A stretch of 64,000 nucleotides of DNA, from NCBI GenBank assembly GCA_000165345.1, contig CM000434.1, positions 1,216,001 to 1,280,000 of the forward strand. The letters are read 5' to 3'. Positions 5,053 to 25,600 of the stretch are shown piece by piece (positions within the stretch are counted from its first letter, which is position 1; each line of letters opens with the position of its first letter). Position numbers and translations under genes: made by a program. The notes beneath the pieces are model-generated. The model had not been told where the DNA came from, made no database searches, and saw nothing but the letters and a program-made list of their open reading frames with translations.

Positions 5053-7530
5053 CTAAACCATTAGCTTTAATTCCGACATTTGACTTTGGAACAAGTTATA
5101 GTTGGCCTGGACTCCTACAGTTCCTACAAGTCTTTCAGGATGCAATGCAGGAAGGCCAAGAATTTGTTCAATACTTGGAATTTGATCAATATTTGGATTC
5201 AACATGGCATTCAAAAGTTCCTTCACATGACTAGATAACTTTAAGTATAGGTTATCATTTTTTGATTCAAAGCTATAATATTCTCCAGTTAAGCAAAAGT
5301 ATAAAAGAACACCAATCATATAAATATGTATTTTTTCAAAAATGTCACAAAAGCGTCCAATGTCCATTAGTTTATTCTTAAGGAGCTTAATGTTATCTAT
5401 ATTAAATATATAACCGTCAGAATTAATGGTATCTTTAATAATTGGAGGAAAATAATTAACAATATCATCATTTTTTTGGCCTTGAGTAAAGCTACTACAT
5501 CGCATCAAGTTTGTTGGATATTTCTTCTTAAAAACAATATCGTCTTGTAGTGAGTCAACCTTCGAGTCTAAATCAATTAGATCCAATGGCCCTAATAATA
5601 AACAACTCTCTTCTTTTCTAATGTATACTCTACTTGCTTTTATTGGGAAAATAAAACTTTTCATTTTTTGTTTACCATTATCTTCTTTGAAGGAGGAGAA
5701 CAAAAAGAAAAGCCTTAGAAGAGACCTAATATACATTAAAGACGTGGACTCTCCAAGAACTCCATTTAAATTTATATATGAAAGGATATCATAGCATTCC
5801 ATATGAGGATAAATCTCAACAATTGTAGAGTTTAAAGACAAAGGAGTATACCATTCAAATATTCCAGAGCATAATACAATATCAGAGACTCCTTGATTCA
5901 TTTGCCTGTTCCTAATACTTTTCGAGTTTAACAAAGAATGGACATTACAATTTTGTTTGAGAAACGAAATAATTTCTAAAGGAACTTCTTTTTCTTTCAT
6001 TTGGCTAATTTGTGAGTTGAAGGCATTCTTAATAATTCTCAATCTTTCAAATGATTCTTGCATCACTACTTTCAACTTGTGAGTATTGGAGGAAATGGAT
6101 ACATTAGAAGAGAACATTGATTCCCTCTGGATTTCATTCTTTGCTGAAAAATCCAGTCTATATAGCTTCAGTACACAGGGAACTAGTTCAGTAAAGTCAA
6201 AAGCTGTCCAGCAGATACTCCTTCTTCCAATACCAATGGGATTTAGGAACATGTGGCGATTATTCACAGTAGAAGGAAAGTTCGAAAGAGGCGAAGATTC
6301 CAAAAGCTTTAGAATATTTGATAATTTAATCAGTAAATTCCTTTTTGTCTTTAAGGCTGACTCCTTTTCTTGAAGTTTATCACTAAGATACCTGGAAAGA
6401 ACTGACCTACAATGCAGACTAAGCTCACTATCGTCGTTAATCATCTTGTTTTCAAGATTCCGATAATTACTATATGATTCATCATCCTCAAAACCCATTT
6501 CATTAAAAGATGAAGAAAAGATGGAGTTATTATCTTGGCTATTCAAATGACTCCGTATTAACTTCCCTTGTAATTCTGCTATTTTATGATGCTGATTTAC
6601 CAAGTCCATTGCATCTGCTCCCATATACCAAGAAGTATTCTTAATATGAACAATCTCCTTATCTTGGCTCATTCCAACATCATCCATAGTTTGGATATCC
6701 GAAAATTTGTCTAATCTCGGAAATCCTACTTGAGAAGTCAAATAATTAATGCAAATGTGCAAAAGTTTTCTTTCTGAGATCGTTAGTTGTCTAAGTCTTG
6801 GTTTAAGAAGGCGAATACCTCTCTCAAGCTCATTTTCTATTGAAAGTTGAAGTTCAATATTAATCTTCATCTCTTGTTCAAGACAATCTATTTGGTTCAT
6901 ACAATCTTGCCAATTTTCCATGAAAGCATTAAAATCTTCTTCATTTACCTGCTCAATCAACTCCTGAGATAACTCTACTGTTTCATAAAGCTTCGATGAA
7001 GCTGGCTGGGTATTTGCAAAGAATATTGGACTCTCAAAGTTGTCAGTTAATCCAATAGGACAAGATCCTGTTGCATTTGGTTCAGAAAACCGTCTTTCAA
7101 ACATTTCAAACTTTTCTGGATTAATCTTTGACCAAAGCATTCCTCTTAAACCTCTGAAATCAATTGGATCTGGGGCTTCACCCCTTTGGCTATCTAATTC
7201 ACCATTATTCATTTCAGAATCTTCTCCTAGACTGTCTTTTGATTGGAACTCTTGGCTTGCAGGACAAGCAACAATATCACCACATCGACACATTCCATTT
7301 TCAAAGTCATTACAGCATTCTCCTTTCAATTTCTTATGACTAATGGCTTCGAGAACTCTTGGCTCTCTAAAATTCTGTGGATAAATTAAAACACCAGGAA
7401 CTGGTCTATAACCCGTTCTTTTGGGGGCATTTCTAAGAAACAGCTTTCTTATATCTAACTGGTTGGATCTTTTTAGTTCATCTCCCAAACCAGAATCCTT
7501 ATTTTTTCTGGATCGCTTTCTTTTGCTCAT
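5053..7530 (-). CDS. Hypothetical 825-aa protein with a basic, Cys-containing N-terminus, a central coiled coil and a degenerate protein-kinase-like (pseudokinase) C-terminal domain.
   Basis: ATG start. The C-terminal part has kinase subdomain IX-like DIGRFCDIFEKIHIYMIGVLLYFCLTGEYYSF (compare DIWSLGVILYELLTG.PPF) and a subdomain-XI-like tail, but no HRD or DFG. The coiled coil is enriched in E, L and Q heptads. Confidence 0.5.
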   Translation of the reverse strand: MSKRKRSRKNKDSGLGDELKRSNQLDIRKLFLRNAPKRTGYRPVPGVLIYPQNFREPRVLEAISHKKLKGECCNDFENGMCRCGDIVACPASQEFQSKDSLGEDSEMNNGELDSQRGEAPDPIDFRGLRGMLWSKINPEKFEMFERRFSEPNATGSCPIGLTDNFESPIFFANTQPASSKLYETVELSQELIEQVNEEDFNAFMENWQDCMNQIDCLEQEMKINIELQLSIENELERGIRLLKPRLRQLTISERKLLHICINYLTSQVGFPRLDKFSDIQTMDDVGMSQDKEIVHIKNTSWYMGADAMDLVNQHHKIAELQGKLIRSHLNSQDNNSIFSSSFNEMGFEDDESYSNYRNLENKMINDDSELSLHCRSVLSRYLSDKLQEKESALKTKRNLLIKLSNILKLLESSPLSNFPSTVNNRHMFLNPIGIGRRSICWTAFDFTELVPCVLKLYRLDFSAKNEIQRESMFSSNVSISSNTHKLKVVMQESFERLRIIKNAFNSQISQMKEKEVPLEIISFLKQNCNVHSLLNSKSIRNRQMNQGVSDIVLCSGIFEWYTPLSLNSTIVEIYPHMECYDILSYINLNGVLGESTSLMYIRSLLRLFFLFSSFKEDNGKQKMKSFIFPIKASRVYIRKEESCLLLGPLDLIDLDSKVDSLQDDIVFKKKYPTNLMRCSSFTQGQKNDDIVNYFPPIIKDTINSDGYIFNIDNIKLLKNKLMDIGRFCDIFEKIHIYMIGVLLYFCLTGEYYSFESKNDNLYLKLSSHVKELLNAMLNPNIDQIPSIEQILGLPALHPERLVGTVGVQANYNLFQSQMSELKLMV

Positions 7531-7848: not shown

Positions 7849-8122
7849 GGGGAAACGCTATTAAAAACAATATTAATAAAATGCAAAGGGAGAAAAAACA
7901 ATATAAACTGGTAATATTATTAAAAAAAAAAAAAAAAAATGATTATAAACTTAAAATATGTAAATCCTAACCTTATGACAATATTTGAACTACTTTAGGT
8001 AACTTATCATTAATAGATGATACTTATATTTTCAACCATTGTAAATTCCTGATAGCTTTAACTTGTTTTAAAGAGCATAATATTGTTATTCATATTATTA
8101 TTTTGTAAATTTTATTCTGTTC

Positions 8123-10330
8123 TCATTTTGAAGAGATCTCTACCTTAAGTCTGGAGTTTTCCAGAGTGCAATGTGAAGGGATAAGTTGATTTGAATTTAG
8201 TACGTAGTTTGCAGCAATTTGGTTGACTATCACACTATTTAGTAGGAATTCTGCTCCAAATTCCCTATTACAAAACCAAGTAACTTTAATTGGACCATTA
8301 TATGAAGTTTCATCATGATCAGATTCTCCTAAATGTATCAGTTGAAGAGTGATTTGTGCTTGGAAGATGCCATCTTTAACTTGGAATTCAAGAATTTTTG
8401 GTAGGAAACTAAACATTTCCAGCTCAATTTTGGATTGATCAATATTCTTAAATTCTGTATGTTGGCCAGTAAAGAAGGACCAACTAGACAGTATTTGGAT
8501 GTCTTTTGCATTGATTAAGCCTTTCTGACTATTTAGAAGTGATGATTTTGAGAAATCATCGAATAATAATTCAAGATTGATTGGGACTTCTAAATTGTCT
8601 GTATATGGTGATATAGTAATAGTACTATGTGGAATTCCATCATTCATATTATTTACATTATTTGAGGAACCTTCTAAGCTTTGATTAACTCCTGGAATAA
8701 TAGTTTCCCTTTCTGGAGGAGGTATTGCTTCTGGAAAATGAGAAATTGAAGATCCAGATTGATGCATGATTCCAATATTTTGATCTAAAGAAGTAATAGT
8801 AAATTGCCCTCCATCATTAAGTAACCCTTTAATACTTAGAGCTTCCATCTTTGGAGTCTCATTATTGCTAATTAAATACCCATAGAAGGTTGTTCTTAGT
8901 TTTCCTCTAATTTGAACCATTAGTTGAGGTGTAATAACCAGAGATTCAACAGAAATGCTTGGCATAGGGATTTGTCTTAAAGGAGGTGGTGGCAGTACTG
9001 CCAAATTTAAATTAGTTTTTGCTGATCTAATTGCAGAATCCATTAATGGAGAAGAACTTCCTACTCCATGCAAATCTAGATCAAAACTCTTGATAGGTAT
9101 GTGATGGCTTGTATTTTCTCCAAAATCTAATGATGGCCTTAAACTCTTTAAAATTACTTCATCCTTAATAAGATTATGCATATTTAAAGTACCTTTAAGG
9201 CTCATTTCAGACTTTCTTCCTATTAATATATCCGAATCATCAATTTTTACGATACCAAGATAGTTATTTCGGTGAAATACTCCCAAGAAGATTTTTCCTA
9301 AATTATTTACAAAGATTCTTCCTCTATAATCATAATTAACCTTGGAATTAAATATAATATTGGAATTGTGACCAACTTCTCTATCAAAAGATATATCAGA
9401 AAGTTGTACATTTGTAATAAGCTCTTTTAATGGCATTGAAATTGTGAATTTTTTTGACATGATTTGGTTTTCATCATTATTTTGTATTCCTGGAACAACC
9501 ATTTGAGTCTTTACCATTACATCTGTAAATCCTTTTGTAATAATATCATGTATTATTCCACTAATACCTACCATATGTGTAGCATTTGAACTTGCATGAA
9601 TCATTACATTCAATTTATCAGATTGAAAAATATCTAAAGAATGAGGACTACTTATTCTCGCAATTGGAATAGAATTCCATTCAACTTTTGCATTTTCTAA
9701 TGGTAAAACCACCTTTGCATTTCTAATTTGTAAACCTTCTTTTGGTGGTGCATTAATATTGACCATTAAAGATGTTTCCAATTTCTCTTGTCCATGATCT
9801 GTTCCAAAATCCACAAATATATCTTCTACATTAAATTCTAAATCTTTAAGTAAAGTTTCATTCCACCCTTGGCTTTTTCCCAAATAAAAGAAAGCTCCTA
9901 GTATTCCAATAATAAAGATAAATCCAATTAGTATTGTGAATACTACATAAAACAACCTATTGGAAGTAAATATTGGTCTCCTTTCATAATTATTGGATTC
10001 TATGTTTTCATTTGGATGACTTTTGTAATAAGCATCACTTTCTTTCATCTCTTCACCTTGTATTCCACATGTATTGTTTCCATGTGTTTGCGGAGTTTTA
10101 ATATCTACAATACTATTTGGGGATCCAATAATGGTGCTGGGACTAAACTCTTCATCTAGATATAGTTCACTTGCTGGAGATTGAATTCTTAGAGAAATTA
10201 CATCTCTATTCTCTTCCCATGATCTTGCATCAAAGTATCTTGCTGATGGATGAGAAACTGTTGAAATAGATGGAGTTCTTACTGTATTAATTACATCCTT
10301 ATTTTCTTCGGCATTATTATTGGCTTCCAT
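8123..10330 (-). CDS. Hypothetical single-pass membrane protein of 735 aa, with one TM about 130 aa in and a large C-terminal domain.
   Basis: ATG start. TM is FYVVFTILIGFIFIIGILGAFFYLG. Long stop-free ORF. The architecture (cytosolic N-terminus, one TM, large domain) is shared with the adjacent divergent gene at 11175. Confidence 0.55.
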   Translation of the reverse strand: MEANNNAEENKDVINTVRTPSISTVSHPSARYFDARSWEENRDVISLRIQSPASELYLDEEFSPSTIIGSPNSIVDIKTPQTHGNNTCGIQGEEMKESDAYYKSHPNENIESNNYERRPIFTSNRLFYVVFTILIGFIFIIGILGAFFYLGKSQGWNETLLKDLEFNVEDIFVDFGTDHGQEKLETSLMVNINAPPKEGLQIRNAKVVLPLENAKVEWNSIPIARISSPHSLDIFQSDKLNVMIHASSNATHMVGISGIIHDIITKGFTDVMVKTQMVVPGIQNNDENQIMSKKFTISMPLKELITNVQLSDISFDREVGHNSNIIFNSKVNYDYRGRIFVNNLGKIFLGVFHRNNYLGIVKIDDSDILIGRKSEMSLKGTLNMHNLIKDEVILKSLRPSLDFGENTSHHIPIKSFDLDLHGVGSSSPLMDSAIRSAKTNLNLAVLPPPPLRQIPMPSISVESLVITPQLMVQIRGKLRTTFYGYLISNNETPKMEALSIKGLLNDGGQFTITSLDQNIGIMHQSGSSISHFPEAIPPPERETIIPGVNQSLEGSSNNVNNMNDGIPHSTITISPYTDNLEVPINLELLFDDFSKSSLLNSQKGLINAKDIQILSSWSFFTGQHTEFKNIDQSKIELEMFSFLPKILEFQVKDGIFQAQITLQLIHLGESDHDETSYNGPIKVTWFCNREFGAEFLLNSVIVNQIAANYVLNSNQLIPSHCTLENSRLKVEISSK

Positions 10331-12217: not shown

Positions 12218-15180
12218 NANANNNANNGNTNANAATNGNANANNANNNNNNTNNAANNAGNTNTTNNNNNNNNNNNCNNNANNTNGNNNATANNGNNNNC
12301 TNANNNNANNNNTNNNAATANNNANAATNNNANNTNNNTANTGCANANTCNNNTNGTNNNATGNAANNNTNCNNNTTCANNTNNANNANNTTNNNNNTAN
12401 TNNNTNNGNTTTATTNNNNGNGNANNNNANNANNNNNNATNNNNNNNNNNNNCNATAANNANNNTNTTNNAAAANNNGNNANNTCCNANNNNNTTNNNNN
12501 ANNNAAANNNNNNNNNTNNNGANNNGNNNNCNNNNANNNNNNNNNNNNNTNATNNNNNANTGAANNNNNNANTTNTNNNTNNTTTAAGNNGTNNNNTNNN
12601 ANNNNNATNNNNNNNNNTNNNTNNNNNNNNNNNNNNNNNNNNTNTCNNTNNNNNNNTCTNTCTNNNNTNNNTNNNTNTNTNNNNNTNTNNNNNTNTNTNC
12701 NNNNCTCNGATNANNNNNNNNNTTACTNNCTNNNANNCNTAAANTNNNNTTANATTNANNNNNTGNNCNNGATTANNNNNNNNANAANNNTAANNNCNAN
12801 NNNNNNTANNNCNNNNNNNACTNNNNNAANNNACCNGANNNTNNNNANNNNNNNTTNNNTNNNAAAGNNNNAAAAAAANNNNNNNCTTNNTCNNTNANAA
12901 ANNTNNNNCNNANCNCNNNNNAANNNTGNTNCNNNANNNNCNNNNNCGNNTNNTNNNTNATNANNNNNNTNNNTNNNNNNNNANNGNTANNNNNAATNNA
13001 NNNNNNNTNNTGNNNNNNATNTANAAAANNNTNNNNANTTNTNTCANNANNTNNNNNTNNNNANNNNTNNNNANTNNNNGNTNTNNATNNANNNAANNAN
13101 NNTNTNNNNNTCANNNNANNNNNNNNTNTNNNGGANNATNNNNNNNANNNAAANANNNNCNNNNATAANGNNNNNCNAAANNNTACANNNNTNGNNNNTT
13201 NNANANTNNCTNNNNTTANTTANTNNNNANTNCNANAANTTANNTNATTNNNANNNNNATANANNNNNCNNTNACAAGNATNNTNNGNNNNNCTNNNTNN
13301 AATNNAANANTNANACNANNNNNNNNNNTNNNNANACNNNNNNAANNNCCAANTNAANNNNNATNNANNNTNNNNNATNNGNANATGATGANNNTAANNN
13401 NNANGANNTANNNNANNNNNNNTNNNANNTNANNNNNNNNNNANTNCNNANNNNTNTNNTNNNNNNNNTNNNNCANNTTNTANNTCNNNTNNCANNNNNN
13501 NNNANNANNNTTNNGANNNGNNNNNAAANNNTNNTTATNNNTTNCTNNNNNNNNNNNANCCNNANTNCTANAGANANNCNNNNNNANACNATNNGNANNN
13601 NATTNNANCTNNATGNNNGNNNACNNNNNNNTNNTNNNGNANTNTNNNNNNNNNNTNNTNTNNNANTNANNNNNNNNNGNANANNNTTNATNNNTNNAAN
13701 ANNANATNNNNNNNTNNNTTANTNNNANNAANTANANNANNTNTTGANNNANNTNCNNANNNNNTANANTNATNNTNTNANNNANTNTNANNNNNTTCNT
13801 TNTNANNNNNGNTAAATNNNNNATNNNNGNNNNANNANNTNNNNTNGNNNTTANNNNNANTGAANNNNNAANNNATTNNTNTNTNNANTNNTNNAATTAT
13901 NCTNAATNNTTATNNGAANANNNATNNNANNTTTTGGANANNNAATNNAAAAGNNNACNNCNNATNNNNNANNANNNNNNANCNNNTAATAANAANATAA
14001 NNNNANNANNNATNNNNNNNTANATTTAANNNNTNNNNNNNTNNNNNTANNTNNNNCTATTNTTNAACTNNTTTTNNCNNNNNNNANTNNNNNNAATANT
14101 TNTNTCANTNNTAAANNNNNGNNNANNNANTNNNATNTNANNNNAGNCNANNNNNNNNNNANTCNAATNNCNNNTNTNATNATNANNNNNNANNTGAAAN
14201 TNGNNTNNATNNTGANANANAANAAANANNAAANANAANNATGNNNNNNNNAATNNNANNNNANANAAATTANANTNNATNNNNNANTNNNNNTTNTTNN
14301 AGNNNAATTNATNNNNNANNNNNANTNNTGANNNANANTNANNANTNNTNNNNNGNNNTANGNTNTANGTNTNANTNNCNATTATNNNNNNNTNNNNTNN
14401 NNNANNNNNTNNNNGNNNNNTGNTGNCNTGNNATNNTANNNNTNNNATNATNTNAANNNANTNNNNNANNNNNTNTNNNANNNNNTNATANNANNNNACN
14501 AANNNNNNNNNNNNNNNNNNNTNNNANNNNNNTNNTCNNANNNCATNNNANNNANGNAAAGANTNNANANTNNNNTNNNNNANNNAANNTNACNNNATTN
14601 NANNNTNNNNNTNTANTNNNNAAANNAATNNANTNGNTNNNANNNTTTNNNNTNNANNNNNNTNNNNNTAANTNAATNANTNNANNANNNNNTNNNCNGN
14701 NNNTNAANNNNNNNNTNNNTANNNGGNGNNANNNNNTNNNNNNNANNNTNNNNNNNNNATNNNNTNNNANNNNCANNANANNNNNCNNATNNNTNNATNN
14801 NNGNNNNNTNATNNNTNNNNNAANTNNNNNANTANANNNAATGTANTNATNNNNNNNNANTTGNANGANNGNNTANATNNNTNNNANANNNNNNNNNNNN
14901 NNTTNATANNTNCTNNNANANNNNTTGATATACAGTNGNNTATNAGNTNTCAATANNCNANANTATGTTGAAANTATGNAANTTNNTNTAANNANGGNTN
15001 NACTGNNTNTTTNNNTTGGAAAAGATGTCNANANGANCNNNTANTCAGCNNTNANNNAGANTCNNAGANANGCNTATNNTTCNGCNNACNAAGTNGANTG
15101 TATCGNAGTCAGNNTGTNATGNTNTTGNTCCNNNTGNAGTTCANGNNNTCNNATGANGNANTNGATCNNGAANTAGANNA
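12218..15180. other. N-masked or ambiguous block. About 70-80% of positions are n, with masking density falling off toward the 3' edge. Contents are unknown.
   Basis: Direct observation. Every ORF with X residues here comes from n being translated as X. Confidence 0.95.
12643..12706. repeat. Probable polypyrimidine (CT-rich) low-complexity tract inside the masked block.
   Basis: Every unmasked base in this roughly 60-nt stretch is t or c (tntc..tctntct..tntntnt..ctc). Confidence 0.3.
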
Positions 15181-15337
15181 ANATNANGAAGAAAAATTAC
15201 ATATTAAAGCTATTAATACTCCTCATGGTATACCATATTGGCTTGTTCCAGTATTTGAATTTCTCAAATTACCAGCTTCCAGTACTTTAAGTAGTCTAGA
15301 TTCAGCAGAGTTTGGATCAGTTACTTTTTCATAATTT
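15181..15337 (+). CDS. C-terminal fragment of a gene whose body lies in the masked region (...EEKLHIKAINTPHGIPYWLVPVFEFLKLPASSTLSSLDSAEFGSVTFS, then stop).
   Basis: Unmasked stop-free tail ending at TAA 15335..15337. Its frame differs from the 11175 ORF, so the link to that gene is unresolved. Confidence 0.3.
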
Positions 15338-15541
15338 TATATTATATAATGCAAATATATAGATTTTGTAATATTGCGCCAAGATAACCACTTTCATGTT
15401 AATACTCACAAATTCAAATTATCATTTTTGGAATAAAAAAAATAACAGGTGTGAATTTGAAAAACAAGTAAAATCCTTGTTATTACATCATTAAAGGAAC
15501 TCATATATTTCCAAATTTATTTTAAAAGAATTTATAACTTC

Positions 15542-17470
15542 ATGGATGATATTTATTTGGCAGAATTTCATGGTTTTATTGATGAAAAAACATGGGAAAT
15601 TGCTAAATTAAGTATACATTATCTTCATACACTTAAAGAAAATATAATAAAAGTCTTGGAAAATGGAGGTACACTTGAGAAATATTCTCATTTAAGAGAT
15701 TTAATTGAAATTGTAAGAATATGTATTTTACATGGTATTTTAATTGGAATAAATTATTTAAATAAATCAGAAGATAATTACAAATATGATTATGGTTCTT
15801 TGTATCATTTTGTAAGAATATTCCCAGAACTTAATGAATTAGGAAAAGTTGATGATATGTGTTTTTTATCATTTTTATTAATGAATAAAGTATTTACTGG
15901 ATTTCTTGAATCTATTAAAAATCCTTCATCAAAATGGAATCAAAGAATAACAATGTATTATCATCATGCTAGTATTTTGAGATATAGTGAATTCTTGAAA
16001 GAGTTTATTTTAATAATCAACAGTTTTGAAAATTGTCTAAGAATCAAAAATTTCCATATTCCTAATAATTGGATGACTTATTTTGCAAAATTATCATTAA
16101 GATGGAATAATTTTGGAAATGATCAAACAACAGAAATATCAATTATTAATGAGAATTTTAAGAATATTAAATATAAAACAAAACAATATAATCATCATGA
16201 TCAAAAAATTCTTAAAAATCTTACAAATATTAATGATATAGAAATTGATTCTAAATCTACTTTAAGTATTTTATTAAAGCAAGAATTTGAACAAAAGATC
16301 AATTTTAAAGATTATAATATATTTGATGATAGAGCTTTTATTTCAAAATCAAGTATATTAAATTCAAATAATGAATTGGATCCAGATATATTAAGTGATA
16401 ATAATGATCATATTGTTGTATATAATGAAAGAAATATTCAAGATATTGAAGATTTATTGGGGGATATGTGGTGTCCAATGTTTGATTATTCTCCTATATC
16501 TGAAAAACTTTATTTAGAAAATGAAGAAGAAAATTTTGTAAATTATGATAATGAAAATAATAATAATAATAACAATAATGACAATAATAATGAATATAAT
16601 AAATTACAAGAAAAAGATGAAAAAAATAATATAGAGTTAAATAATATTTATAATTATGAAGATATTAATCATTATATAAATATTAATAATGAATCAGATT
16701 TATCTAATTTCAAGATTAATTATGAATTAAAATTGATAAAAAATGATAATAATGAATTGAAAGAAAGGTATTTATCTTATTATCATATTCCATTAAATAA
16801 ACAAGAAGAAAGGTTAATATTAGAATTACAAGATTATAAATGTTTTACAAAACATTGTGAAAATATATTAGAATTTGATCAAGAATCTAAATTGAATTTC
16901 TGTTGTTTTACTGGTTATTATTATTGTGATTATTGTTATGGATCAAATACATGTTCAATTTTACCAGGTCTTCTTGCAAAATATGGAAATTTAACACCAG
17001 TTCCAGTATCAATTAAATCTAAAGAAAAATTAAAAAGTCTTGAAAATATACCATTGATTAAGATTCATTCATTAACAGCTGAAATATGGGAATCTAATAA
17101 GTATATTAAACAATTGGTATATTTGAAATCATATTTATCATCATTATTAATTATGAATGATAATAATAATAATAATAATAATAAATGTCAATATAAAGAA
17201 TCAATAAAAAGAAGATTATTAAGAGAATATGATATAATATATCAATTTGGTAGATATGAATATTTTTCAGTAAATCAATTAACAGAAATAGCTTATGAGA
17301 TATTTTCACAAGAGGTTACAATGTATTCAAATGAAACAAATATTCAAATTACTGTAAGAGAAATGAAAAATATTGCAATCAATTGGAGAAAACATTTATT
17401 AAAATGTATACATTGTCAATATCAAAATAAAAATTCAAAGAAAGATTTAATTTTATCTTTAAAAGAGTAA
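15542..17470 (+). CDS. Rubicon/PLEKHM1/DEF8-family protein: RUN-like N-terminal domain plus a C-terminal cysteine-rich Rubicon-homology (RH) zinc-finger domain, with poly-Asn insertions.
   Basis: ATG start. The C-terminal FCCFTGYYYCDYCYGSNTCSILPGLLAKYGNLTPVPVS...LIKIHSLTAEIW...KQLVYLKSYL...CIHCQ aligns with Rubicon [38 protein letters not shown]...LLIKIWNDPL...CMLCQ. The N-terminus is a RUN-like helical region. The middle has Asn runs encoded by (AAT)n. Confidence 0.5.
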   Translation: MDDIYLAEFHGFIDEKTWEIAKLSIHYLHTLKENIIKVLENGGTLEKYSHLRDLIEIVRICILHGILIGINYLNKSEDNYKYDYGSLYHFVRIFPELNELGKVDDMCFLSFLLMNKVFTGFLESIKNPSSKWNQRITMYYHHASILRYSEFLKEFILIINSFENCLRIKNFHIPNNWMTYFAKLSLRWNNFGNDQTTEISIINENFKNIKYKTKQYNHHDQKILKNLTNINDIEIDSKSTLSILLKQEFEQKINFKDYNIFDDRAFISKSSILNSNNELDPDILSDNNDHIVVYNERNIQDIEDLLGDMWCPMFDYSPISEKLYLENEEENFVNYDNENNNNNNNNDNNNEYNKLQEKDEKNNIELNNIYNYEDINHYININNESDLSNFKINYELKLIKNDNNELKERYLSYYHIPLNKQEERLILELQDYKCFTKHCENILEFDQESKLNFCCFTGYYYCDYCYGSNTCSILPGLLAKYGNLTPVPVSIKSKEKLKSLENIPLIKIHSLTAEIWESNKYIKQLVYLKSYLSSLLIMNDNNNNNNNKCQYKESIKRRLLREYDIIYQFGRYEYFSVNQLTEIAYEIFSQEVTMYSNETNIQITVREMKNIAINWRKHLLKCIHCQYQNKNSKKDLILSLKE

Positions 17471-17510
17471 AATATATTTATATTTATTTCAAGATTCAAA
17501 CTTTCTTTAT

Positions 17511-17580
<70 letters not shown>

Positions 17581-17850
17581 TATTTGCTGAATAAATATCC
17601 AAATATTTCCCCTCATGGTGCCATTTTGGATTTAATAATTATTGCAAAAATGCATTTATTGAATGGAAATCAATTATTAATATTATAATTTCTAATTGGA
17701 AATTCTTTTTTTGTTCTTGAAGAAAAAAAACTCTCAAATCACTCAGTTATTTAACTTTATTATTATTTTTCTCAACTTATTTTAATTTTATATTTAAACA
17801 AAAAAAAAAAAAAAGAAAAAGTTATCAAAAAGTTAAATACTTAATTTTGA

Positions 17851-19558
17851 ATGTGGAATTTTTATAAAAAAATACCAAATATTAATTCATTTTATTCAGT
17901 TGGAAATGGAGAAGAAATAATACAAAGATTAAAAGTCAATAAGAAAGCATTATTAGTTTCAGGAGAAACTGAAGATTATAAAGGATGTACAAATGATATT
18001 ATAGAATATGCAGTAATACTTTCAAATATATATAAATTTAAAGAAATAAGAATTTTATTAAGTGAAAGTATCAGAAATTTTATATGGAAATTTTATATCA
18101 TTATCATTAAGTAGAATTAATGGAGCAATAATACAAATAGTAAGATTGTCAAAAAAATCTCTCAAAGAAGGATTTCAATGGTTAATTTCTATGGAAGAAA
18201 ATACAGGAAATGAAAACTATTACTCAGAATTTTCAAATATATATAGAGGAAATGATAATTTTGGGATGAATTTCTCAAATAATATTTATGATTTAGTATT
18301 TGTTTATTCTGGTCCAGTAAAATTTTCAAAGAATGATATTAATATTGATAATAATACAAATATAGAAAATGAAGCAGTTAACGGTCCATTTTTTTTAATT
18401 TCAAAAGGAAAAAAAAATGATAAAGATGAATATGATTATGATGATTATATAAGTTTTTCAGATTTTGATAGAATGATATTAGAAACAAATTCAAATAATA
18501 AAGGCAATTTGACATGTTTTTTGGATTGTAATTATTCATATATGTTTTTATCAGATTATACAAAAGGAGAAGAATATTGTAATAATAATAATAATAATAA
18601 TAATAGTAATTATGAAAATATTCGATTTAATCATCATCGAATATCAACAATGCCAGAAATAAATAATAATAATAATAATAAAGATCTCTTAAATATTAAT
18701 CCAAATAAGACATCTTATTACAAAAAGAGAGATCTTTCTGTAATAATATTAGCATCATGTTCTTCTTCAATACAAGATTCACAAGAAATTAAATTATGTT
18801 CAAATAATGGTATAGGATTATCAATAATATATAGAAGATTATTTTCATATTTTATTCAATCAATAATAAGATATCATTTTGAAAATATAATAAATAAAGA
18901 TAATAATCAAAATTTTCAATTAATTCCAAGAATTACTTTAAAATCTTTAATTGAAGAGATTTCAAGAAATATGTTTCATTATTTAACAAAAAATCATTTA
19001 AAGAATCAAATTCCAATATTATTAGCATCAGTTGGAATTTCAACACAAGATAATATATTATTAAATAATGATATGAATAATATAAATATGATGAATTATT
19101 TAAATGATGGTGATTATATTATTGGTAATTTTGATCAAAAAAATAAAATTAATTCTAATATATCATTATCATCATCAAATAATATAATGAATTTTAATAA
19201 ATTTCCAATAAAGAATTTAAATATGGGAAATAATAAAAGAATATATAATAATAATAATAATAATAATTGTTATATGTATCAAAGAAATATTCCAAATATT
19301 AGTATTAGTCCAAATTCTAATTCTAATTTGATTCAAGAGATTAATCAATTAAGATCAGAATTATCTTATTTAAAACAAACTATCAATTCTGAAAATATTG
19401 CTCGAAATTTCAATTATAATGAAAATAATTATAATAGAATAAATAATGGATATAAAAGTTATTGTCCTGTTCAAATTTTCAATTCAGATACTATTTTTAA
19501 AAAAAGTGTAAAACCATCATCAACTATAACTCATCATAGAACATTCACATCAAAGTAA
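17851..19558 (+). CDS. Asn-rich hypothetical protein. The gene is split between two reading frames with a break near 18062..18114, which is either an unannotated short intron or a frameshift.
   Basis: An ATG-initiated 87-codon stop-free ORF (17851..18114, frame 1) overlaps a 498-codon ORF (frame 2) whose track start is GTG. An 87-codon stop-free stretch in AT-rich DNA argues that the upstream piece is coding. Candidate intron 18069..18111 (GTATCA...TTAAG) or 18111..18144 (GTAGAA...GTAAG) would fuse the frames. Confidence 0.35.
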
Positions 19559-19860
19559 ATCAATTAATAAAAGAGAAATAAATTGATGAAAAAATATATA
19601 TATTAGGCTAAGAATTTATATTATTGGGAATTTTTAATACAGATACATATACAATAGTTTTTATTTATTAATAGCTTTTAAACAAAGAAAAAATGAAATA
19701 AAATAAAAGAAAAATGTATTTATAAATAGGACAAATAACTAAATAGAATAATAAAATTATATATAATTTTAATTTTTTTGAAAATAAATAGAAAAAAATA
19801 AAATATTTGCAATATTAACTCTATTAGGGTCAATTTTATAGATTTAATTGTATTAAATAC

Positions 19861-19925
19861 ATTACGTGTAAATTACGTGTAAATAATATTATATTATTAA
19901 ATTTGCATGTGCATGTGCATGCGAA
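19861..19925. promoter_or_regulatory. Composite upstream element: tandem ttacgtgtaaa x2, then (tgcatg)x3 (tgcatgtgcatgtgcatgcgaatg), with an E2F-like tttttggcgccaatt at 20180..20194, upstream of the Aurora-like kinase gene.
   Basis: Read directly. GGCGCC palindrome at 20186..20191. Confidence 0.35.
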
Positions 19926-20250
19926 TGAGCAGAAACATATTGTAAATGTATTTATTATATTGGAATTAAAGAGGTTTATAGTTCGTGAGAAGAAGTAGGT
20001 ATTGTGTACATTTTTTTTATTTATTTCTATTATTTTAAGAGAAACAAATTATCGGTAAAAGTTGAGTTAAATTTACGATTTAAATACCCAGAATTTTGTG
20101 TTACAAATAAATTCCAAGTTGCAATTTTAATTCAAATTTATAAGTAAAGACACGTAATTCCGAGGGGGAAGTGGTAACCTTTTTGGCGCCAATTGTGGGG
20201 AAATAATGGGCATGCAGGGAAAAAAAAAATGTGTGTAAGTATGAGGAATA

Positions 20251-22305
20251 ATGAGAGAGGAGTATAACTATGATAGTTATAAGTACAGAGAGGGTGGAAT
20301 TAAAAGAGAGGAGTTGAAACAAAATAAGTTTGGTAGAGCAGAACTTTTAAAAAAGGAAAATGAATTAAGCAAACGAGAAGGAGCAGTGTTAAAGTCCAAA
20401 AATGTTCCAAAGCTTGCTTTGGAATCTGTGGATCCAAAAAGCAAATGGAAACAAATAACATCTAGTACATTCTACGGTGACTCGGGTCCATTACTTTCAA
20501 AGTTACACTCAGTTCCAGAGGAATTACAAAGACACTTTGAGATTTATGATGGAATTGAGGGAGTATTAGGTAGAGGAGCGTATTCAAGCGTATTTAAGAT
20601 CAGAAGTAAAAGAAGTGGTAATATATATGCATTAAAAGTTATGAGCGTAGAGCATTTTACTTGTAGAGGATTGTCAGGACAATTAAGAAGAGAAATTCAA
20701 CTTCAATCACAATGTTTTCATCCTAATATTGTTCAGTTATATAAATGTTTGGAACATAATGGGTATGTATTTTTGATTCTAGAGTATGTAGACACTAATT
20801 TATTCAATATTCTTCATAGAAAAAAGAAGAACCATGTAATTAGAGCTGGAGCTAGACGAAATAGATATATTCCAAGTGACGAAGAATATCAAGAAGAAGA
20901 ATCGTCTCTTTTTGCAAGAAATGAAGTGGTGAGTTATTTAACCCAAATACTCAAGGCTATTAATTATCTTCATGAAATGAGTATAGTTCATAGAGATGTT
21001 AAGCCTGAGAATATTTTAATTTCTTGTGAAGGAAGAGTTAAGCTTGGAGATTTTGGGTGGTGTGGAGATTTATGTAGGAGATGTAATTCAATGGCAGGAA
21101 CATTCTGTTATATGGCTCCAGAAATCCTTAAAGGTGAAAGACAAACAGCTAAAGTGGATTCTTGGAGCGTTGGAATTTTAATTTACGAGCTTTATATGGG
21201 AAATGTACCATTTATTCCAAATAACTCATCTGGAGGAGGAGGGAGAGGAGGAAGAGAGGGAGAATGTGATGGAAATACTAATTCTCAAGTAATTTCAATG
21301 CTAAATTCTATTAGAGAAATCTCCAAGGATGCAAGACCCAGTAGATTTCCACCAGATGCCTGGCATCTTTGTTGTTGGCTACTAAGGAAAAACTCCAACG
21401 AAAGAGCTTCTCCAATTCAAGCTCTCAACCATCCATTTCTAGCTGATGGCAACCTTACTTCTCCCATTCCTATTACTCCTTTCAGAAGGCCTGAATTTCA
21501 ATTAAATTCTACTCCAAAGACTGTCAGGCAAGATATATCTTCCCCTAAAGTACAAAATTCCACTACTTTTACTACCCTTCCTCTTGTTGCAGTTCCCACT
21601 CCAAGAAAAGCCTCCGAGAAGGAAAAGTTGAGGCCAGAAACCCAAATTAAAAGAATGGTAACTGAGATACCAACTAATATGTATAACTATAACTATAACT
21701 ATAACTCTGAAAGAAGTTCTGGTTTGCATGCCAATAATAACTATCTCTCGCAGAAAACTGCTTTGAATGCACCTGTTGTTGGAGTTGGACCAGGAATTAA
21801 TGTTGTTTCTGTCCAAACTGATCACTACAAACAACAAAATCCTAGTTCTGAAACTAGGTACTATCAATATCAACAGGCCCGTGTCGCAAATACCAAAAGA
21901 GCAGATGAACCTCAGAGAAGAGATCTTTCTGTTGTTAGGAATCCTCTTCCCAGAGATCATTTTGGCCCAGGATACTTACAAAAGATTCCTCAACAGTATC
22001 CTATTGATCAAAACCCTAGAATCAATTATAATGAAAACTTCCAGGTTTCATCAAGGCCTGTATTTGATAGAAATCAGTTATATGGACAAGCACCACCTCA
22101 GCCTCAAGGAATCATCTCTCGTGATATTTATATGCCTCCTGTTCCACAAATGGGATCAGGATTTCCCCAAAATCAGCCCAACAAACCCATATTAAGGCAA
22201 AATACACCTCCAAATAGATATGTCAGTCAACCTCCCATATATTACTATGAACAACAACCATCACAAGTAAGAAGGAATCACTACATATCACAAAACCACC
22301 ATTGA
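20251..22305 (+). CDS. Aurora-family serine/threonine protein kinase with a kinase-insert segment and a long Q/P/Y/N-rich C-terminal tail.
   Basis: ATG start. Motifs: GRGAYSSVFK...YALKVM (VAIK-like), HRDVKPENILI, DFGWC (the Aurora-typical DFGW), GTFCYMAPEIL, DSWSVGILIYEL. (AACTAT)4 at about 21676 encodes NYNYNYNY. Confidence 0.75.
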   Translation: MREEYNYDSYKYREGGIKREELKQNKFGRAELLKKENELSKREGAVLKSKNVPKLALESVDPKSKWKQITSSTFYGDSGPLLSKLHSVPEELQRHFEIYDGIEGVLGRGAYSSVFKIRSKRSGNIYALKVMSVEHFTCRGLSGQLRREIQLQSQCFHPNIVQLYKCLEHNGYVFLILEYVDTNLFNILHRKKKNHVIRAGARRNRYIPSDEEYQEEESSLFARNEVVSYLTQILKAINYLHEMSIVHRDVKPENILISCEGRVKLGDFGWCGDLCRRCNSMAGTFCYMAPEILKGERQTAKVDSWSVGILIYELYMGNVPFIPNNSSGGGGRGGREGECDGNTNSQVISMLNSIREISKDARPSRFPPDAWHLCCWLLRKNSNERASPIQALNHPFLADGNLTSPIPITPFRRPEFQLNSTPKTVRQDISSPKVQNSTTFTTLPLVAVPTPRKASEKEKLRPETQIKRMVTEIPTNMYNYNYNYNSERSSGLHANNNYLSQKTALNAPVVGVGPGINVVSVQTDHYKQQNPSSETRYYQYQQARVANTKRADEPQRRDLSVVRNPLPRDHFGPGYLQKIPQQYPIDQNPRINYNENFQVSSRPVFDRNQLYGQAPPQPQGIISRDIYMPPVPQMGSGFPQNQPNKPILRQNTPPNRYVSQPPIYYYEQQPSQVRRNHYISQNHH

Positions 22306-22614: not shown

Positions 22615-25600
22615 TCATCTCCTCGAGTACCTATAATTGCCTTGGAAGCTAGATTCATAAGGTTCAGGAGCAGGAGGGTAATGGTGAGCCGATCCACCCT
22701 CCATCTGAGGAGGAGGATATCCGTGGAAGGATTTCCTGAATCCTCCAGAGTGGGAGTGGGATCCATATTGGGATGCTCCCCCTCCAGACTTGCTATGGCT
22801 TCCACCTGTCTGACTCCCAAAGTTGTCTGCTGCATGATTATGTCTAGAGTGAGAATAATTGCTCGAATGTTGGCTCTGGTATCCTCCACTTCCTCCTCCA
22901 CCACCTCCACCACCAGAATTATAATGATAACTGTTATGATGAGAAGTTCCGAACTTTCTGGATCCAAAATCGTCCTCTGAGTTCGCTTTCCCTTGCTTCT
23001 GTCTCACCATGTATTCCTTATACCTCTTATAATCCTCCAAATGTTTAGATCTCTTAAAGAATCCCTCAGTCTTCCACCAGTTCAACAGCTTTCTCAAAGT
23101 ATTCTCGGATTTCCTCCATAACTGAAACCCTTTATGATTTACATAAATCCCATCTTCAAAGTGTATCCTAGCTCCACTTGAACCTACTCTTGAATTTGGT
23201 GGAACTGAAATTAGATGAAATCTACAAGGAATCTGTTTATCAGCTGTTATACCCCAAACTATCGAGTTACCACTTGTAGAGGATTCCACTAAAAGCTCAG
23301 TAACCAGATTCTGATATTCCATATTAGATCTATACTTTGGATGACTAAATACATTTGAAAGGTGTACCTTCAAAGGATGTACATATTGAATCAATATTTG
23401 ATCAATATCATTAAAATCTGAATCATCTATTCTTAATCTTCTTCCTAGCTCTCCAGGAAGCCTTTGGTCAAACTCATCTATGTTAATCACCTTAAACATA
23501 AAGGGATTTTCACAAACTTTTACATACATATTCAACTTATCTATATATTTAGTTGATGATTTAATTATTACTTCTCCCAAAGGTACTGTCTCACTCTTCA
23601 TATGCTCAATTATCTGCTCATGAGTCCAACTCCTAAAGTTTGGATGATGAATTGTACGTAATATTGTTCCACGATACTTGTTATCACCCCTACTCTCTCT
23701 GTCCCAAAGTCTGTCTCCTGATCCAATACCATTCTTGCCTAATCCAGAGTTGAGATTCAGTCCTGAGCTTGTAGATAATACATTCAAGTTCTTTTTGAAC
23801 AATATAAAGGCAAAGTGACGAATATCTGTCCAAATTAAAGCAGATAGATCATCTTGTAATAAGTTAAAGTCATTTCTTTGGTATTCTTGAATTGCTATAT
23901 TATGCATAGAAATCGATGATGAATCTGTATTGTTTGTTTGTCCACCTTGAGATTGTGAAGATCCTCCAGAATTACTATCATATCTATGTTTCTCTATCAT
24001 ATCAAGACGATACTGTTGTTGTCTCCAAACTCCATCAATTAAGTAATTTAATATATTACAAATCTTACTCTGAGATAAATTAACAAATACACAATGTTGA
24101 GAAAAATCTATATTTGTAACAATAGCTTGTAAAGGAGTATTCAATTTAAATAAATTATCAAATGAGACGGATTGAAGCTTAGGAAACTCGTCAAGGAGTT
24201 CTTCCCATAATGTATCAAAATCTTCAAGCACTACTTTCATATTATATTGATCAAACCAAAGTGTAATTGGACATCTAGAAGGTCCTCTAACGTTGTTTAA
24301 AACTCCTGTAATTCTGCATGTAATCTCACAACCAATAAATAAATCTTCTTTAGAAATCTCAAAAGATTCTCTGAGTTGTCTAGACTTTTCAATACCTCTA
24401 AATTCTCTTGAAACAAATGAACAGTCATAAGGCTTCTTAAGTTCTCTAAGCATTCTATTAAGATATGGAAGAAGTCTTGGTCTATCTTGGTTTTCATACA
24501 TAAGCTTTGCATAAGCTTCAAGATCAAGTGTCTCAAGCTTTGAGCTTCTTTTTGAAATCCAAGTCCAAAGTACTGTCTCATCCTTTTCTTTAGACTTTTG
24601 TCTAATTCCAGATACACTTTCCTCAGAAACTTGATCACGAATATTACCTAGAATTGTCAAAACTAGCTCCTTATCCTCCACATCGCTAAGTCGACTAATA
24701 TCAAATATGTTCAAATTCCTATTGTATTCTCTTTCATTACAGCTTTCTTCATCAACTCTAAGAAAGACTTGAGCATTCAAATAGACATTCTTTGTGAGAC
24801 AACCATCTTGATGTTGTTCACCTTGTCTAAAGTCGTATTCATAATGATTATTATCAATAGATGATGATTTTCTATGGTTTGTTGTTTCATTATGGTTGTC
24901 ATCTTGTCTTAATTGGCTTCTGGTAGAAATTGGTCCTGGATGAGAGTCTAAATAAAATGCCAAAGATTTGGCTTTTCTTGGTCCTAAACCACTCACAAAC
25001 TTAAGTGGGGACTGTAAATGAGAGTGACCTTTCATTCTGTTGATCTGCACTCCAAGATTAGCAACTACAGAGCGGATAGCCAAAAGTAAGTGGAATTGGA
25101 GCATTTTCGGATCTACACTGTCTTGAAGTCTGTGTAATTTTAGGCATGTAATAGGATTAAACCAATCTTTTGCTCCAGTTGAAGAGGATGAGCTAATAGC
25201 TCCGAGTTCATTATCTAAACCAAAAATATTGGCACTTAGCTCACTTTCAATTTCATTTCCTGAGTCCTCCCAAAGCTGTAATTGTTCAGCTAAGGGATTT
25301 TGAACAAGTCTTCCAACAGAAACTGCTAGACTGACATACATTGGATACTCTGATTGAAGACCTTTTGGTTTTTGTGACCCAGAAGTCTTTTGATCAGAAC
25401 CTGATCTACGTACTAGAGCTCTTGAGACATCCATAGAAACAAATAGAAATCCTGGAGTAAACTTGTGATCCTTTCTTTTAACTTTCTTGAGAATATTATT
25501 CCAAAGACCTGCTAACTCTAAGCTCTTTCTATCTGAAATCCCAACACAAATATAGTGAGGATAGTACATTTTTGTGAATCGAATTAGATTCTCCATATCC

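What the first reader, a model, noticed from the sequence alone, without database searches (positions are those of the whole stretch)
15542..17470. Rubicon-homology (Rab7-binding zinc-finger) domain protein in an apicomplexan-like genome
The C-terminal 150 aa align block-for-block with the RH domain of Rubicon/PLEKHM1/DEF8, including the YCxYxGxYxCxxC core, the ILP segment, the LIKIW helix and the terminal CxxC. The N-terminus is RUN-like.

RH-domain proteins regulate late endosome and autophagosome traffic in animals. A member here, expanded with poly-Asn inserts, would point to a conserved Rab7 effector that is poorly characterised in apicomplexans.
Basis: partly seen in the sequence, partly recalled or inferred. 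Interest (0 to 1): 0.5.

Follow-up and report, generated by a model that had tools for sequence, protein, structure and literature searches.

The report
Cryptosporidium RUN-like protein with shortened Rubicon-homology domain
This is an already annotated but unstudied Cryptosporidium parvum gene whose protein really is related to the Rubicon/PLEKHM1 family, but it lacks the last quarter of the domain, the part that in human Rubicon holds most of the Rab7-binding surface, so it cannot simply be called a Rab7 effector.

Summary
The ORF at 15542-17470 (+) is real and encodes 642 aa. It is identical to C. parvum Iowa II EAK90091.1, "cysteine-rich protein with zinc finger", on chromosome 6.

- **RH homology is genuine.** Pfam RH_dom scores 40.5 bits against a cutoff of 28.1 (E 3.6e-10). 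A profile of 13 Cryptosporidium orthologues hits human Rubicon 6WCW at E 4.8e-5, and hhalign gives 90% probability.
- **The domain is incomplete.** The match stops at profile position 152 of 206. That is exactly where human Rubicon reads C881-x2-C884-Q885.
- **The ending is genus-wide.** All 13 orthologues finish 7-27 residues later, with no further zinc ligands.
- **What is missing.** Rubicon 886-945 has no counterpart. It holds C891 to C932, the C912/C915/H920/C923 residues whose mutation abolishes Rab7 binding, and helix alpha13.
- **What is retained.** The FYVE-like Zn cluster 1, the helical stalk, and C549/H618/C622/C625.
- **A Rab7 exists** in C. parvum (cgd7_1680).

Verdict: a RUN-plus-RH family relative with a shortened RH domain. 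Rab7 binding is unproven and the canonical interface is absent. Databases already flag the RH domain. Interest is modest.

The parts
15542..17470 (+). Complete single-exon gene, 642 aa plus TAA stop. It is identical to C. parvum Iowa II EAK90091.1 / QOY41408.1. The gene ID cgd6_5200 is inferred from the neighbour's tag cpbgf_6005190.
   Evidence: synteny with chipmunk genotype I locus L003
15584..16117 (+). N-terminal all-helical domain (aa ~15-192), RUN-like. It is the most conserved part of the protein: 78% mean identity to the window protein across 13 orthologues.
16127..16753 (+). Poorly conserved, low-complexity linker (aa 196-404), predicted mostly unstructured. It contains the N8 run (aa 339-346, nt 16556-16579).
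   Evidence: 46% mean identity against 75-78% in the flanking domains; pLDDT 22-31 and almost no secondary structure
16421..16480 (+). Conserved island inside the linker (aa 294-313, YNERNIQDIEDLLGDMWCPM). L305, L306, W310 and P312 are invariant. It may be a short linear interaction motif: an acidic run followed by W-x-P-[MIVLG].
   Evidence: invariant columns; the functional reading is inference only
16814..17419 (+). RH-like domain (aa 425-626). It is homologous to Rubicon 712-885 only and stops at Pfam RH_dom position 152 of 206.
16841..16936 (+). FYVE-like Zn cluster 1 region. C434 and C439 align with Rubicon C721 and C724. C454 aligns with C739. C462 and C465 align with C747 and C750. C455 is an extra invariant Cys. 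All are invariant in 13 orthologues.
   Evidence: alignments; invariants; Rubicon numbering verified
17162..17182 (+). Poly-Asn insert (aa 541-547) at the end of the stalk helix. The site is length-variable in the genus, with about 80 extra residues in C. muris. It lies where Rubicon has the Rab7 contacts N821/M822.
   Evidence: contact residues from PMC7382272
17186..17416 (+). Second conserved half (aa 549-625). It contains C549 (Rubicon C826), F575-S576..Q579-L580 (Rubicon Y850-S851..D854-L855) and H618-x3-C622-x2-C625 (Rubicon H877, C881, C884). These four invariant ligands are inferred to form one zinc site.
   Evidence: The Pfam end-point mapping places profile position 152 at human Q885 and at Cp Q626. 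The best local hhalign of this half alone picks the same H..C..C register but is weak, E 0.014. Zinc binding is inferred.
17420..17470 (+). Non-conserved 16-aa tail (YQNKNSKKDLILSLKE) and the stop codon. It has no Cys or His. It replaces Rubicon 886-945: the remaining Cys/His clusters, the IFPF motif and helix alpha13.
   Evidence: All 13 orthologues end 7-27 aa after the CxxC with 0-1 Cys. No Cys-rich reading frame exists between the stop and the next gene at 17851.

Best explanation
The gene is the Cryptosporidium parvum chromosome 6 locus annotated 'cysteine-rich protein with zinc finger'.

**Architecture.** It encodes a cytosolic multidomain protein with the same overall layout as Rubicon: a RUN-like helical domain, a long disordered linker and an RH-type zinc domain. 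The RH domain is a shortened version.
- Kept: the FYVE-like four-Cys zinc cluster 1, the long helical stalk and a helical hairpin. The hairpin is closed by one further site, C549/H618/C622/C625.
- Missing: the last ~60 residues. In human Rubicon these build the remaining zinc clusters and helix alpha13, and form most of the Rab7 switch-II pocket.

**Most likely role (inferred, not shown).** It is an endomembrane adaptor or effector that docks onto one or two small GTPases. RUN domains bind Arl8, Rab or Rap GTPases, and RH domains bind Rab7. It would sit on the parasite's reduced endosome-like or post-Golgi compartments.

**Rab7.** If it binds the C. parvum Rab7 (cgd7_1680), it must do so through a surface different from the one seen in the Rubicon-Rab7 crystal structure.

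**Status of each step.**
- Shown: homology to the RH family, the position of the truncation, and conservation across the genus.
- Moderately supported: the RUN fold.
- Inferred: zinc stoichiometry (two sites rather than four), GTPase binding, and localisation.
For: - **Identity and orthology.** An exact match to C. parvum entries and 12 orthologues in 10+ Cryptosporidium species, all carrying PF13901, in conserved gene order.
- **RH homology.** Pfam 40.5 bits against a 28.1 cutoff. 6wcw_A at E 4.8e-5 with the profile. hhalign 90% probability.
- **Truncation point.** Human Rubicon cut after C884-Q885 covers profile 1-152, and the full domain covers 1-205. The window protein ends its match at profile 152, residue Q626.
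- **Tails.** They are 7-27 aa long, unconserved, with 0-1 Cys in all 13 orthologues. Nothing Cys-rich lies downstream.
- **Purifying selection on both domains.** 75-78% identity in the domains against 46% in the linker. There are 9 invariant Cys and 1 invariant His.
- **RUN.**
- **Rab7 present in C. parvum.** Table S1 of PMC3591302.
Against: - No experimental data exist for this protein. No paper in the searched library mentions it.
- The register of the second half of the RH-like region rests on the Pfam end-point and motif spacing. On its own it is not significant: E 0.014 by hhalign, and no Pfam hit for aa 548-642 alone.
- RUN evidence is individually sub-threshold: Pfam 13.3 bits against 22, hhalign E 0.061, Foldseek E 0.5. 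It also comes from a low-confidence model (pLDDT 50).
- Zinc-ligand assignments in Rubicon clusters 2-4 could not be read, because the figures were not available. I therefore cannot say which Rubicon cluster C549/H618/C622/C625 corresponds to.
Confidence: 0.6

Rival explanations
1. The protein is a conventional Rab7 effector of the Rubicon/PLEKHM1/DEF8 type. Its RH domain binds Rab7-GTP as in 6WCW and regulates late endosome or autophagosome traffic.
For: - A significant RH_dom hit.
- A Rubicon-like RUN-plus-RH layout.
- C. parvum has a Rab7 orthologue, cgd7_1680.
- The stalk and the H-x3-C-x2-C element next to the Rab7 site are retained.
Against: - The region equivalent to Rubicon 886-945 is absent in all 13 orthologues.
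- That region holds contact residues A886, K887, F889, I890, Q895, E897, I900, R931, R934 and R938 (PMC7382272).
- It also holds the CGHL residues C912/C915/H920/C923, whose mutation abolishes binding (PMC12335601).
- The retained contact positions are not conserved: T825 is K, R827 is Q, and L883 is variable.
- N821/M822 coincide with a hypervariable insert.
- No Pfam family other than RH_dom, including any PI3K-binding-region model, matched the full protein at E<=1.
Confidence: 0.25
2. The protein is better described as a RUFY-like protein. It would combine a RUN domain with a FYVE-type zinc finger and bind PI3P membranes. On this view the RH hit reflects only the FYVE-like cluster 1.
For: - Rubicon Zn cluster 1 is itself FYVE-like (PMC7382272).
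- The strongest sequence similarity lies in that region.
Against: - There is no Pfam FYVE hit at E<=1.
- The similarity continues about 75 residues past the zinc knuckles into RH-specific stalk motifs: IP..L.K...., VS..SK..L, PL.
- The FYVE PI3P-binding signatures (WxxD, R[R/K]HHCR, RVC) are not present in aa 425-470. This is read directly from the sequence and rests on my own knowledge of the motifs.
Confidence: 0.07
3. The gene model is truncated or the gene is decaying. The full RH domain would then exist in the real transcript, for example through a missed 3' exon, or the locus would be a pseudogene.
For: - This stretch of the window has assembly problems nearby: scattered N at 12218-15187 and a 1-nt indel at ~18066.
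- The GC content is very low.
Against: - The ORF is identical in an independent 1.3-Mb chromosome assembly and in a read-based assembly.
- Thirteen orthologues from independent annotations stop at the same place.
- No Cys-rich frame lies between the stop and the next gene.
- Both domains are strongly conserved, which argues against decay.
Confidence: 0.04
4. The RH similarity is a chance match of a Cys-rich, compositionally biased protein.
For: - The protein is 13% Asn and very AT-rich.
- The second half alone gives no hit.
Against: - The match is above Pfam's curated threshold in every orthologue tested, with E from 1e-10 to 5e-14.
- PF13901 is precomputed for all 10 hits.
- There are independent hits to 6wcw_A.
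- The aligned region is not the low-complexity part.
Confidence: 0.03

Closest known systems
Human Rubicon (RUBCN), RH domain structure 6WCW
   Same: - The overall order is the same: N-terminal RUN(-like) domain, long disordered middle, C-terminal RH-type zinc domain.
- The four Cys of the FYVE-like Zn cluster 1 are conserved.
- The stalk helix motifs are conserved, as are C826, Y850-S851/L855, H877, C881 and C884.
   Different: - There is no counterpart of residues 886-945: the Cys/His-rich end of the domain, the IFPF motif and helix alpha13. Most of the Rab7 interface and the CGHL residues are therefore missing.
- The first knuckle is Cx4C instead of Cx2C.
- C749 and H751 are not conserved, and there is an extra Cys (C455).
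- A poly-Asn or long insert sits where N821/M822 lie.
- No PI3K-binding region was detected.
- The RUN similarity is only sub-threshold.
PLEKHM1 / PLEKHM2 (SKIP) RUN domains (8JC5, 8JCA) and PLEKHM1 RH domain
   Same: - The N-terminal model's best structural matches include the SKIP and PLEKHM1 RUN domains.
- PLEKHM1 also combines RUN with RH.
   Different: - No PH or C1 domains were detected.
- Arl8 binding by the RUN-like domain is untested.
- The conserved RUN motif G-R-x-R-A-W reads G-K-V-D-D-M-C-F here (direct reading of A3 against A4).
Pfam PF13901 (RH_dom, formerly DUF4206) proteins of other Cryptosporidium species
   Same: These are direct orthologues at 39-94% identity (A1 alignment) and in the same gene order. 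They are already labelled 'DUF4206 family protein' or 'Rubicon Homology domain-containing protein' for C. meleagridis and C. muris.
   Different: There is no material difference. The shortened domain is a genus-wide feature.
RUFY family (RUN + FYVE)
   Same: A RUN-type N-terminus combined with a FYVE-like zinc knuckle.
   Different: There is no FYVE profile hit, no PI3P-binding signature, and the similarity extends into RH-specific stalk motifs.

Membership tests
RH-domain family (Pfam PF13901; Rubicon, PLEKHM1, Pacer, DEF8) | Profile match above the curated gathering score | tested here: met
   40.5 bits against 28.1, E 3.6e-10. Orthologues score 42-53 bits.
RH-domain family | FYVE-like Cys4 zinc cluster 1 (Rubicon C721, C724, C747, C750) | tested here: met
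   C434, C439, C462 and C465 align to them and are invariant in 13 orthologues. The first pair is spaced Cx4C rather than Cx2C. The assignment of these four as the cluster-1 ligands is my inference from the paper's description.
RH-domain family | Helical stalk following cluster 1 | tested here: met
   The alignment to 6wcw_A residues 17-124 runs through aa 425-542. Helices are predicted at aa 520-535 and 550-613 (low confidence).
RH-domain family | C-terminal Cys/His-rich part building the further zinc clusters (Rubicon C891, C894, H907, C909, C912, C915, C918, H920, C923, C929, C932). The structure has four clusters, 12 Cys and 4 His in all. | tested here: not met
   The profile match ends at 152/206, which is Rubicon Q885. 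Only 16 residues without Cys or His follow. This holds in all 13 orthologues.
RH-domain family | 'CGHL' residues required for Rab7 binding (C912, C915, H920, C923) | tested here: not met
   The residues are defined in PMC12335601. They lie in the absent segment.
RH-domain family | C-terminal helix alpha13 with the Arg residues contacting Rab7 alpha3 (R931, R934, R938, R939) | tested here: not met
   PMC7382272. There is no corresponding sequence.
RH-domain family | Direct binding to GTP-bound Rab7 | not testable with these tools
   This needs biochemistry or a complex prediction. A candidate partner exists, cgd7_1680.
RUN domain (Pfam PF02759) | Profile match above the gathering score (22 bits) | tested here: not met
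   13.3 bits, E 0.092 for this protein. There are sub-threshold hits in 6 of 10 orthologues, best E 9.2e-4, and RUN is the only recurrent family.
RUN domain | RUN fold (helical bundle superposable on solved RUN domains) | tested here: inconclusive
Rubicon orthologue (RUN + PI3K-binding region + RH) | PI3KC3-C2/Beclin-binding middle region | tested here: not met
   No Pfam family other than RH_dom matches at E<=1. The middle region is low-complexity and poorly conserved. A short divergent motif cannot be excluded.

The most novel reading that the evidence does not exclude
The Cryptosporidium protein would represent a minimal, two-zinc RH module: cluster 1, the stalk and a single C3H site. This module would have been stably kept across the genus. 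It would recognise a small GTPase through a surface different from the Rubicon-Rab7 interface. The partner could be Rab7 bound in a new way, or another of the nine Cryptosporidium Rabs or an Arl. Together with a highly diverged RUN domain, it would form a lineage-specific trafficking adaptor in a parasite with a stripped-down endolysosomal and autophagy system.
Probability: 0.18. Interest if true: 0.55.

Novelty: new variant of a known kind. Interest (0 to 1): 0.3.

Why it matters
RH-domain proteins are described in the structural literature as metazoan regulators of late endosome and autophagosome traffic. Cryptosporidium has a very reduced endomembrane and Rab repertoire, with nine Rabs including one Rab7. 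It is also a major cause of childhood diarrhoea with few drug targets.

A conserved RUN-plus-RH protein in this genus is a reasonable handle on its poorly understood post-Golgi and endosome-like trafficking.

The practical point of this check is a caution. The Pfam label 'Rubicon homology domain' invites the annotation 'Rab7 effector'. Yet the part of the domain that makes most Rab7 contacts, and that is needed for binding in human Rubicon, is not there. The finding is otherwise ordinary. The gene and its RH annotation are already in public databases, and nothing here points to a new kind of system.

Tried and rejected
2. **The search for homologous proteins with the RH-region alignment A2.** It returned nothing at all, not even the input proteins. 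I treat this as a tool artefact. It tells us nothing about distribution outside Cryptosporidium.
3. **The last homology search, with the human Rubicon fragment.** It returned only short exon-level fragments. No full-length Rubicon was obtained for RUN or RH profiles. I rebuilt the human RH sequence from those fragments plus memory, then verified it as 100% identical to 6wcw_A residues 17-250.
4. **HMMER of the N-terminal profile against 1.84 billion representatives.** Only Cryptosporidium was found. Orthologues in other apicomplexans could be neither found nor excluded.
5. **hhalign of the second RH half alone against Rubicon.** It found the correct H..C..C register but is not significant.
6. 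**hhalign of the N-terminus against four PDB RUN sequences.** E 0.061.
7. **Literature searches.** I searched for a Cryptosporidium Rubicon-like protein, for cgd6_5200, and for DUF4206 in apicomplexans. Nothing relevant came up.
8. **A downstream exon or frameshifted continuation of the RH domain.** None was found.
9. **Whether the low GC of the gene marks foreign DNA.** I rejected this, because the orthologous locus in chipmunk genotype I shows the same dip and the same gene order.
Full report
**What is at the coordinates.** An uninterrupted ORF runs from the ATG at 15542 to the TAA at 17468-17470 on the + strand and encodes 642 aa. The protein is Asn-, Leu-, Ile-, Lys- and Glu-rich. It has two poly-Asn runs, at aa 339-346 and 541-547.

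An exact-sequence look-up identifies it as EAK90091.1, 'cysteine-rich protein with zinc finger [Cryptosporidium parvum Iowa II]', which is the same as QOY41408.1. Two other window proteins, a kinase and an ABC ATPase, are likewise identical to C. parvum entries.

The same ORF lies on a 1.3-Mb chromosome record, GCA_031892065.1 CP029785.1. That record matches the window at 99.98% outside a damaged stretch. The window is therefore C. parvum chromosome 6. The upstream neighbour carries the tag cpbgf_6005190, so the gene is probably cgd6_5200. This ID is an inference.

Orthologues with 39-94% identity exist in at least ten other Cryptosporidium species. All have a precomputed PF13901 hit. Gene order is the same in chipmunk genotype I.

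**Is the RH similarity real?** Yes, on four counts.
- Pfam RH_dom matches at 40.5 bits, E 3.6e-10, over aa 453-626. This is above the curated cutoff of 28.1.
- Three further orthologues score 42-53 bits.
- Against PDB sequences the only hit is 6wcw_A, the human Rubicon RH domain. The single protein gives E 4.6e-4 and the profile of 13 orthologues gives E 4.8e-5.
- hhalign gives 90% probability, E 1.4e-6, over 100 columns.

The aligned part covers the first CxxC-type knuckle, the FCCFTGYYYCDYC core, the (S)ILP segment and the first stalk helix.

**How much of the RH domain is there?** I needed the human sequence for this. I reconstructed Rubicon 712-945 from the HMMER alignments, two fragments (P0047, P0123) and memory. 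I then verified it as 100% identical to 6wcw_A residues 17-250. Chain index plus 695 gives the Rubicon residue number. This numbering reproduces every residue named in PMC7382272: N821, M822, T825, R827, L883, A886, K887, F889, I890, Q895, E897, I900, R931, R934, R938 and R939.

The truncation point follows from three Pfam results.
- The full human domain covers RH_dom positions 1-205.
- The same sequence cut right after C881-M-L-C884-Q885 covers positions 1-152.
- The Cryptosporidium match ends at position 152 at Q626, immediately after C622-I-H-C625.

The parasite protein thus stops being an RH domain exactly at Rubicon Q885. Only 16 residues follow (YQNKNSKKDLILSLKE) and none is Cys or His. 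All 13 orthologues end 7-27 residues after the same H-x3-C-x2-C, with 0-1 Cys in poorly conserved tails. No Cys-rich reading frame lies between the stop codon and the next gene at 17851. The shortening is therefore genuine and genus-wide. It is not a gene-model artefact.

**Ligand map.** Across the 13 orthologues the invariant Cys and His residues of the RH-like region are C434, C439, C454, C455, C462, C465, C549, H618, C622 and C625.

| Cryptosporidium | Human Rubicon |
|---|---|
| C434 | C721 |
| C439 | C724 |
| C454 | C739 |
| C455 | none (extra invariant Cys) |
| C462 | C747 |
| C465 | C750 |
| C549 | C826 |
| H618 | H877 |
| C622 | C881 |
| C625 | C884 |

The first six rows come from the alignments. 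The last four come from the Pfam end-point and motif spacing. The FS..QL motif at 575-580 matches YS..DL at 850-855. That second-half register is recovered by hhalign on its own, but weakly, at E 0.014.

Rubicon's C749 and H751 are not conserved. The eleven Cys/His residues from C891 to C932 have no counterpart.

The structure paper reports four zinc clusters, 12 Cys and 4 His in all, with clusters 2-4 next to Rab7. The parasite domain can have at most cluster 1 plus one further site.

**Consequences for Rab7 binding.** In Rubicon, Rab7 is contacted by three elements:
- the segment 883-900;
- helix alpha13 (R931, R934, R938).

Single Asp substitutions at T825, L883, K887 or F889, and the quadruple Arg mutant, reduce co-localisation with Rab7. 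The classical CGHL mutant (C912G, C915G, C923G, H920L) abolishes binding (PMC2993745; PMC12335601).

In the Cryptosporidium protein the picture is as follows.
- Positions 886-945 do not exist.
- T825 corresponds to an invariant Lys and R827 to an invariant Gln.
- L883 corresponds to a variable H/Y/N/K/L.
- N821/M822 fall in a length-variable insertion site. It is seven Asn here and about 80 extra residues in C. muris.

C. parvum does have a Rab7 orthologue, cgd7_1680, among its nine Rabs (Table S1 of PMC3591302). A partner is therefore available. However, the canonical interface cannot be formed, and the label 'Rab7-binding' cannot be transferred by homology.

**The N-terminus.** Residues 1-195 are the most conserved part of the protein, at 78% mean identity. 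They have no detectable homologue outside Cryptosporidium in 1.84 billion cluster representatives. Four weak lines of evidence point the same way.
- **Pfam.** RUN is below threshold for this protein: 13.3 bits against 22, E 0.092, aa 107-161 on profile 69-119/131. It is nonetheless the only family hit recurrently, in 6 of 10 orthologues, with best E 9.2e-4.
- **hhalign.** Against four real RUN sequences recovered from the PDB it aligns the same blocks at E 0.061.
- **Foldseek.** Its two best of 350,542 chains are also RUN domains, though not significant.

The equally poor full-length model did not produce such a pattern. I regard 'RUN-like' as probable, about 0.7, but not proven. The signature G-R-x-R-A-W is not conserved.

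**Architecture and likely function.** The layout has three parts:
- a RUN-like domain (aa ~15-192);
- a disordered, fast-evolving linker (aa 196-404), containing one conserved island (aa 294-313, with invariant L305, L306, W310 and P312);
- a shortened RH domain (aa 425-626).

This is the Rubicon layout without a detectable PI3K-binding region. The best-supported reading is a cytosolic adaptor or effector for small GTPases on endosome-like or post-Golgi membranes. Both domains are under purifying selection. Which GTPase it binds, how many zinc ions it holds (predicted two) and where it sits in the cell are all inferences.

**Comparison with what is known, and novelty.** RH annotation of this protein and its orthologues already exists. 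PF13901 is precomputed for it. The C. meleagridis orthologue is named 'DUF4206 family protein', and UniRef uses the name 'Rubicon Homology domain-containing protein'. I found no paper on it.

This check adds three things: the position and genus-wide nature of the truncation, the loss of the Rab7-binding half, and moderate support for a RUN-like N-terminus. I rate it a variant of a known kind, of modest interest.

**Limits.**
The distribution outside Cryptosporidium is therefore open.
- Structural confidence is low throughout.
- Ligand-to-cluster assignments for Rubicon clusters 2-4 were not available in text form.

Noticed in passing
window 12218-15187: About 60% of bases are N, scattered singly and in short runs. 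The stretch lies inside the upstream 1326-aa gene (cpbgf_6005190-like; source names include 'Transmembrane protein' and 'AsmA-like C-terminal domain-containing protein'). It is 2970 nt here against 2791 nt in CP029785.1. The remaining letters match that record only about 50% at any fixed offset. It looks like a low-quality or deliberately degraded stretch, so this gene cannot be read from the window.
   Followed up: partly
window ~15200-20000: GC falls to 18-19% across the RH gene and the next gene, against 28-40% in the rest of the window. The orthologous locus of Cryptosporidium chipmunk genotype I shows the same dip (21-24%) and the same gene order. It is therefore a conserved local property and not foreign DNA.
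   Followed up: partly
window 18064-18067 and 18148: There is one extra A (GTGAAAG against GTGAAG) relative to CP029785.1. It splits the downstream 568-aa hypothetical gene (CPATCC_0016850-like) into an 87-aa ORF (17851-18114) and a 498-aa ORF (18062-19558). There is also a G/A difference at 18148. This is either a sequencing error or a strain frameshift.
   Followed up: partly
window ~7925-7940: A poly-A homopolymer is one base longer than in CP029785.1. It lies between the genes at 5053-7530 and 8123-10330.
   Followed up: no
window 16421-16480 (aa 294-313): A conserved island, NIQDIE[ED]LLxxMWxPxFD, sits in an otherwise fast-evolving linker. An acidic run followed by W-x-P-[MIVLG] is reminiscent of an Atg8-interacting (LIR/AIM) or other short linear motif. 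This has not been tested.
   Followed up: no
protein cluster: The 90%-identity cluster holding this protein also contains the two neighbouring, unrelated gene products (1326 aa and 568 aa). Its representative is the 1326-aa protein. A fused gene model somewhere in the collection probably caused this. It explains why the first homology search listed no C. parvum, C. hominis or C. meleagridis entry.
   Followed up: partly
window 20251-22305, 22615-29313, 30065-32317: The flanking genes are ordinary conserved ones: a Ser/Thr protein kinase, a 2232-aa protein with HHH_7 and SH2_2 domains (Spt6-like), and an ABC ATPase with two AAA domains.
   Followed up: no
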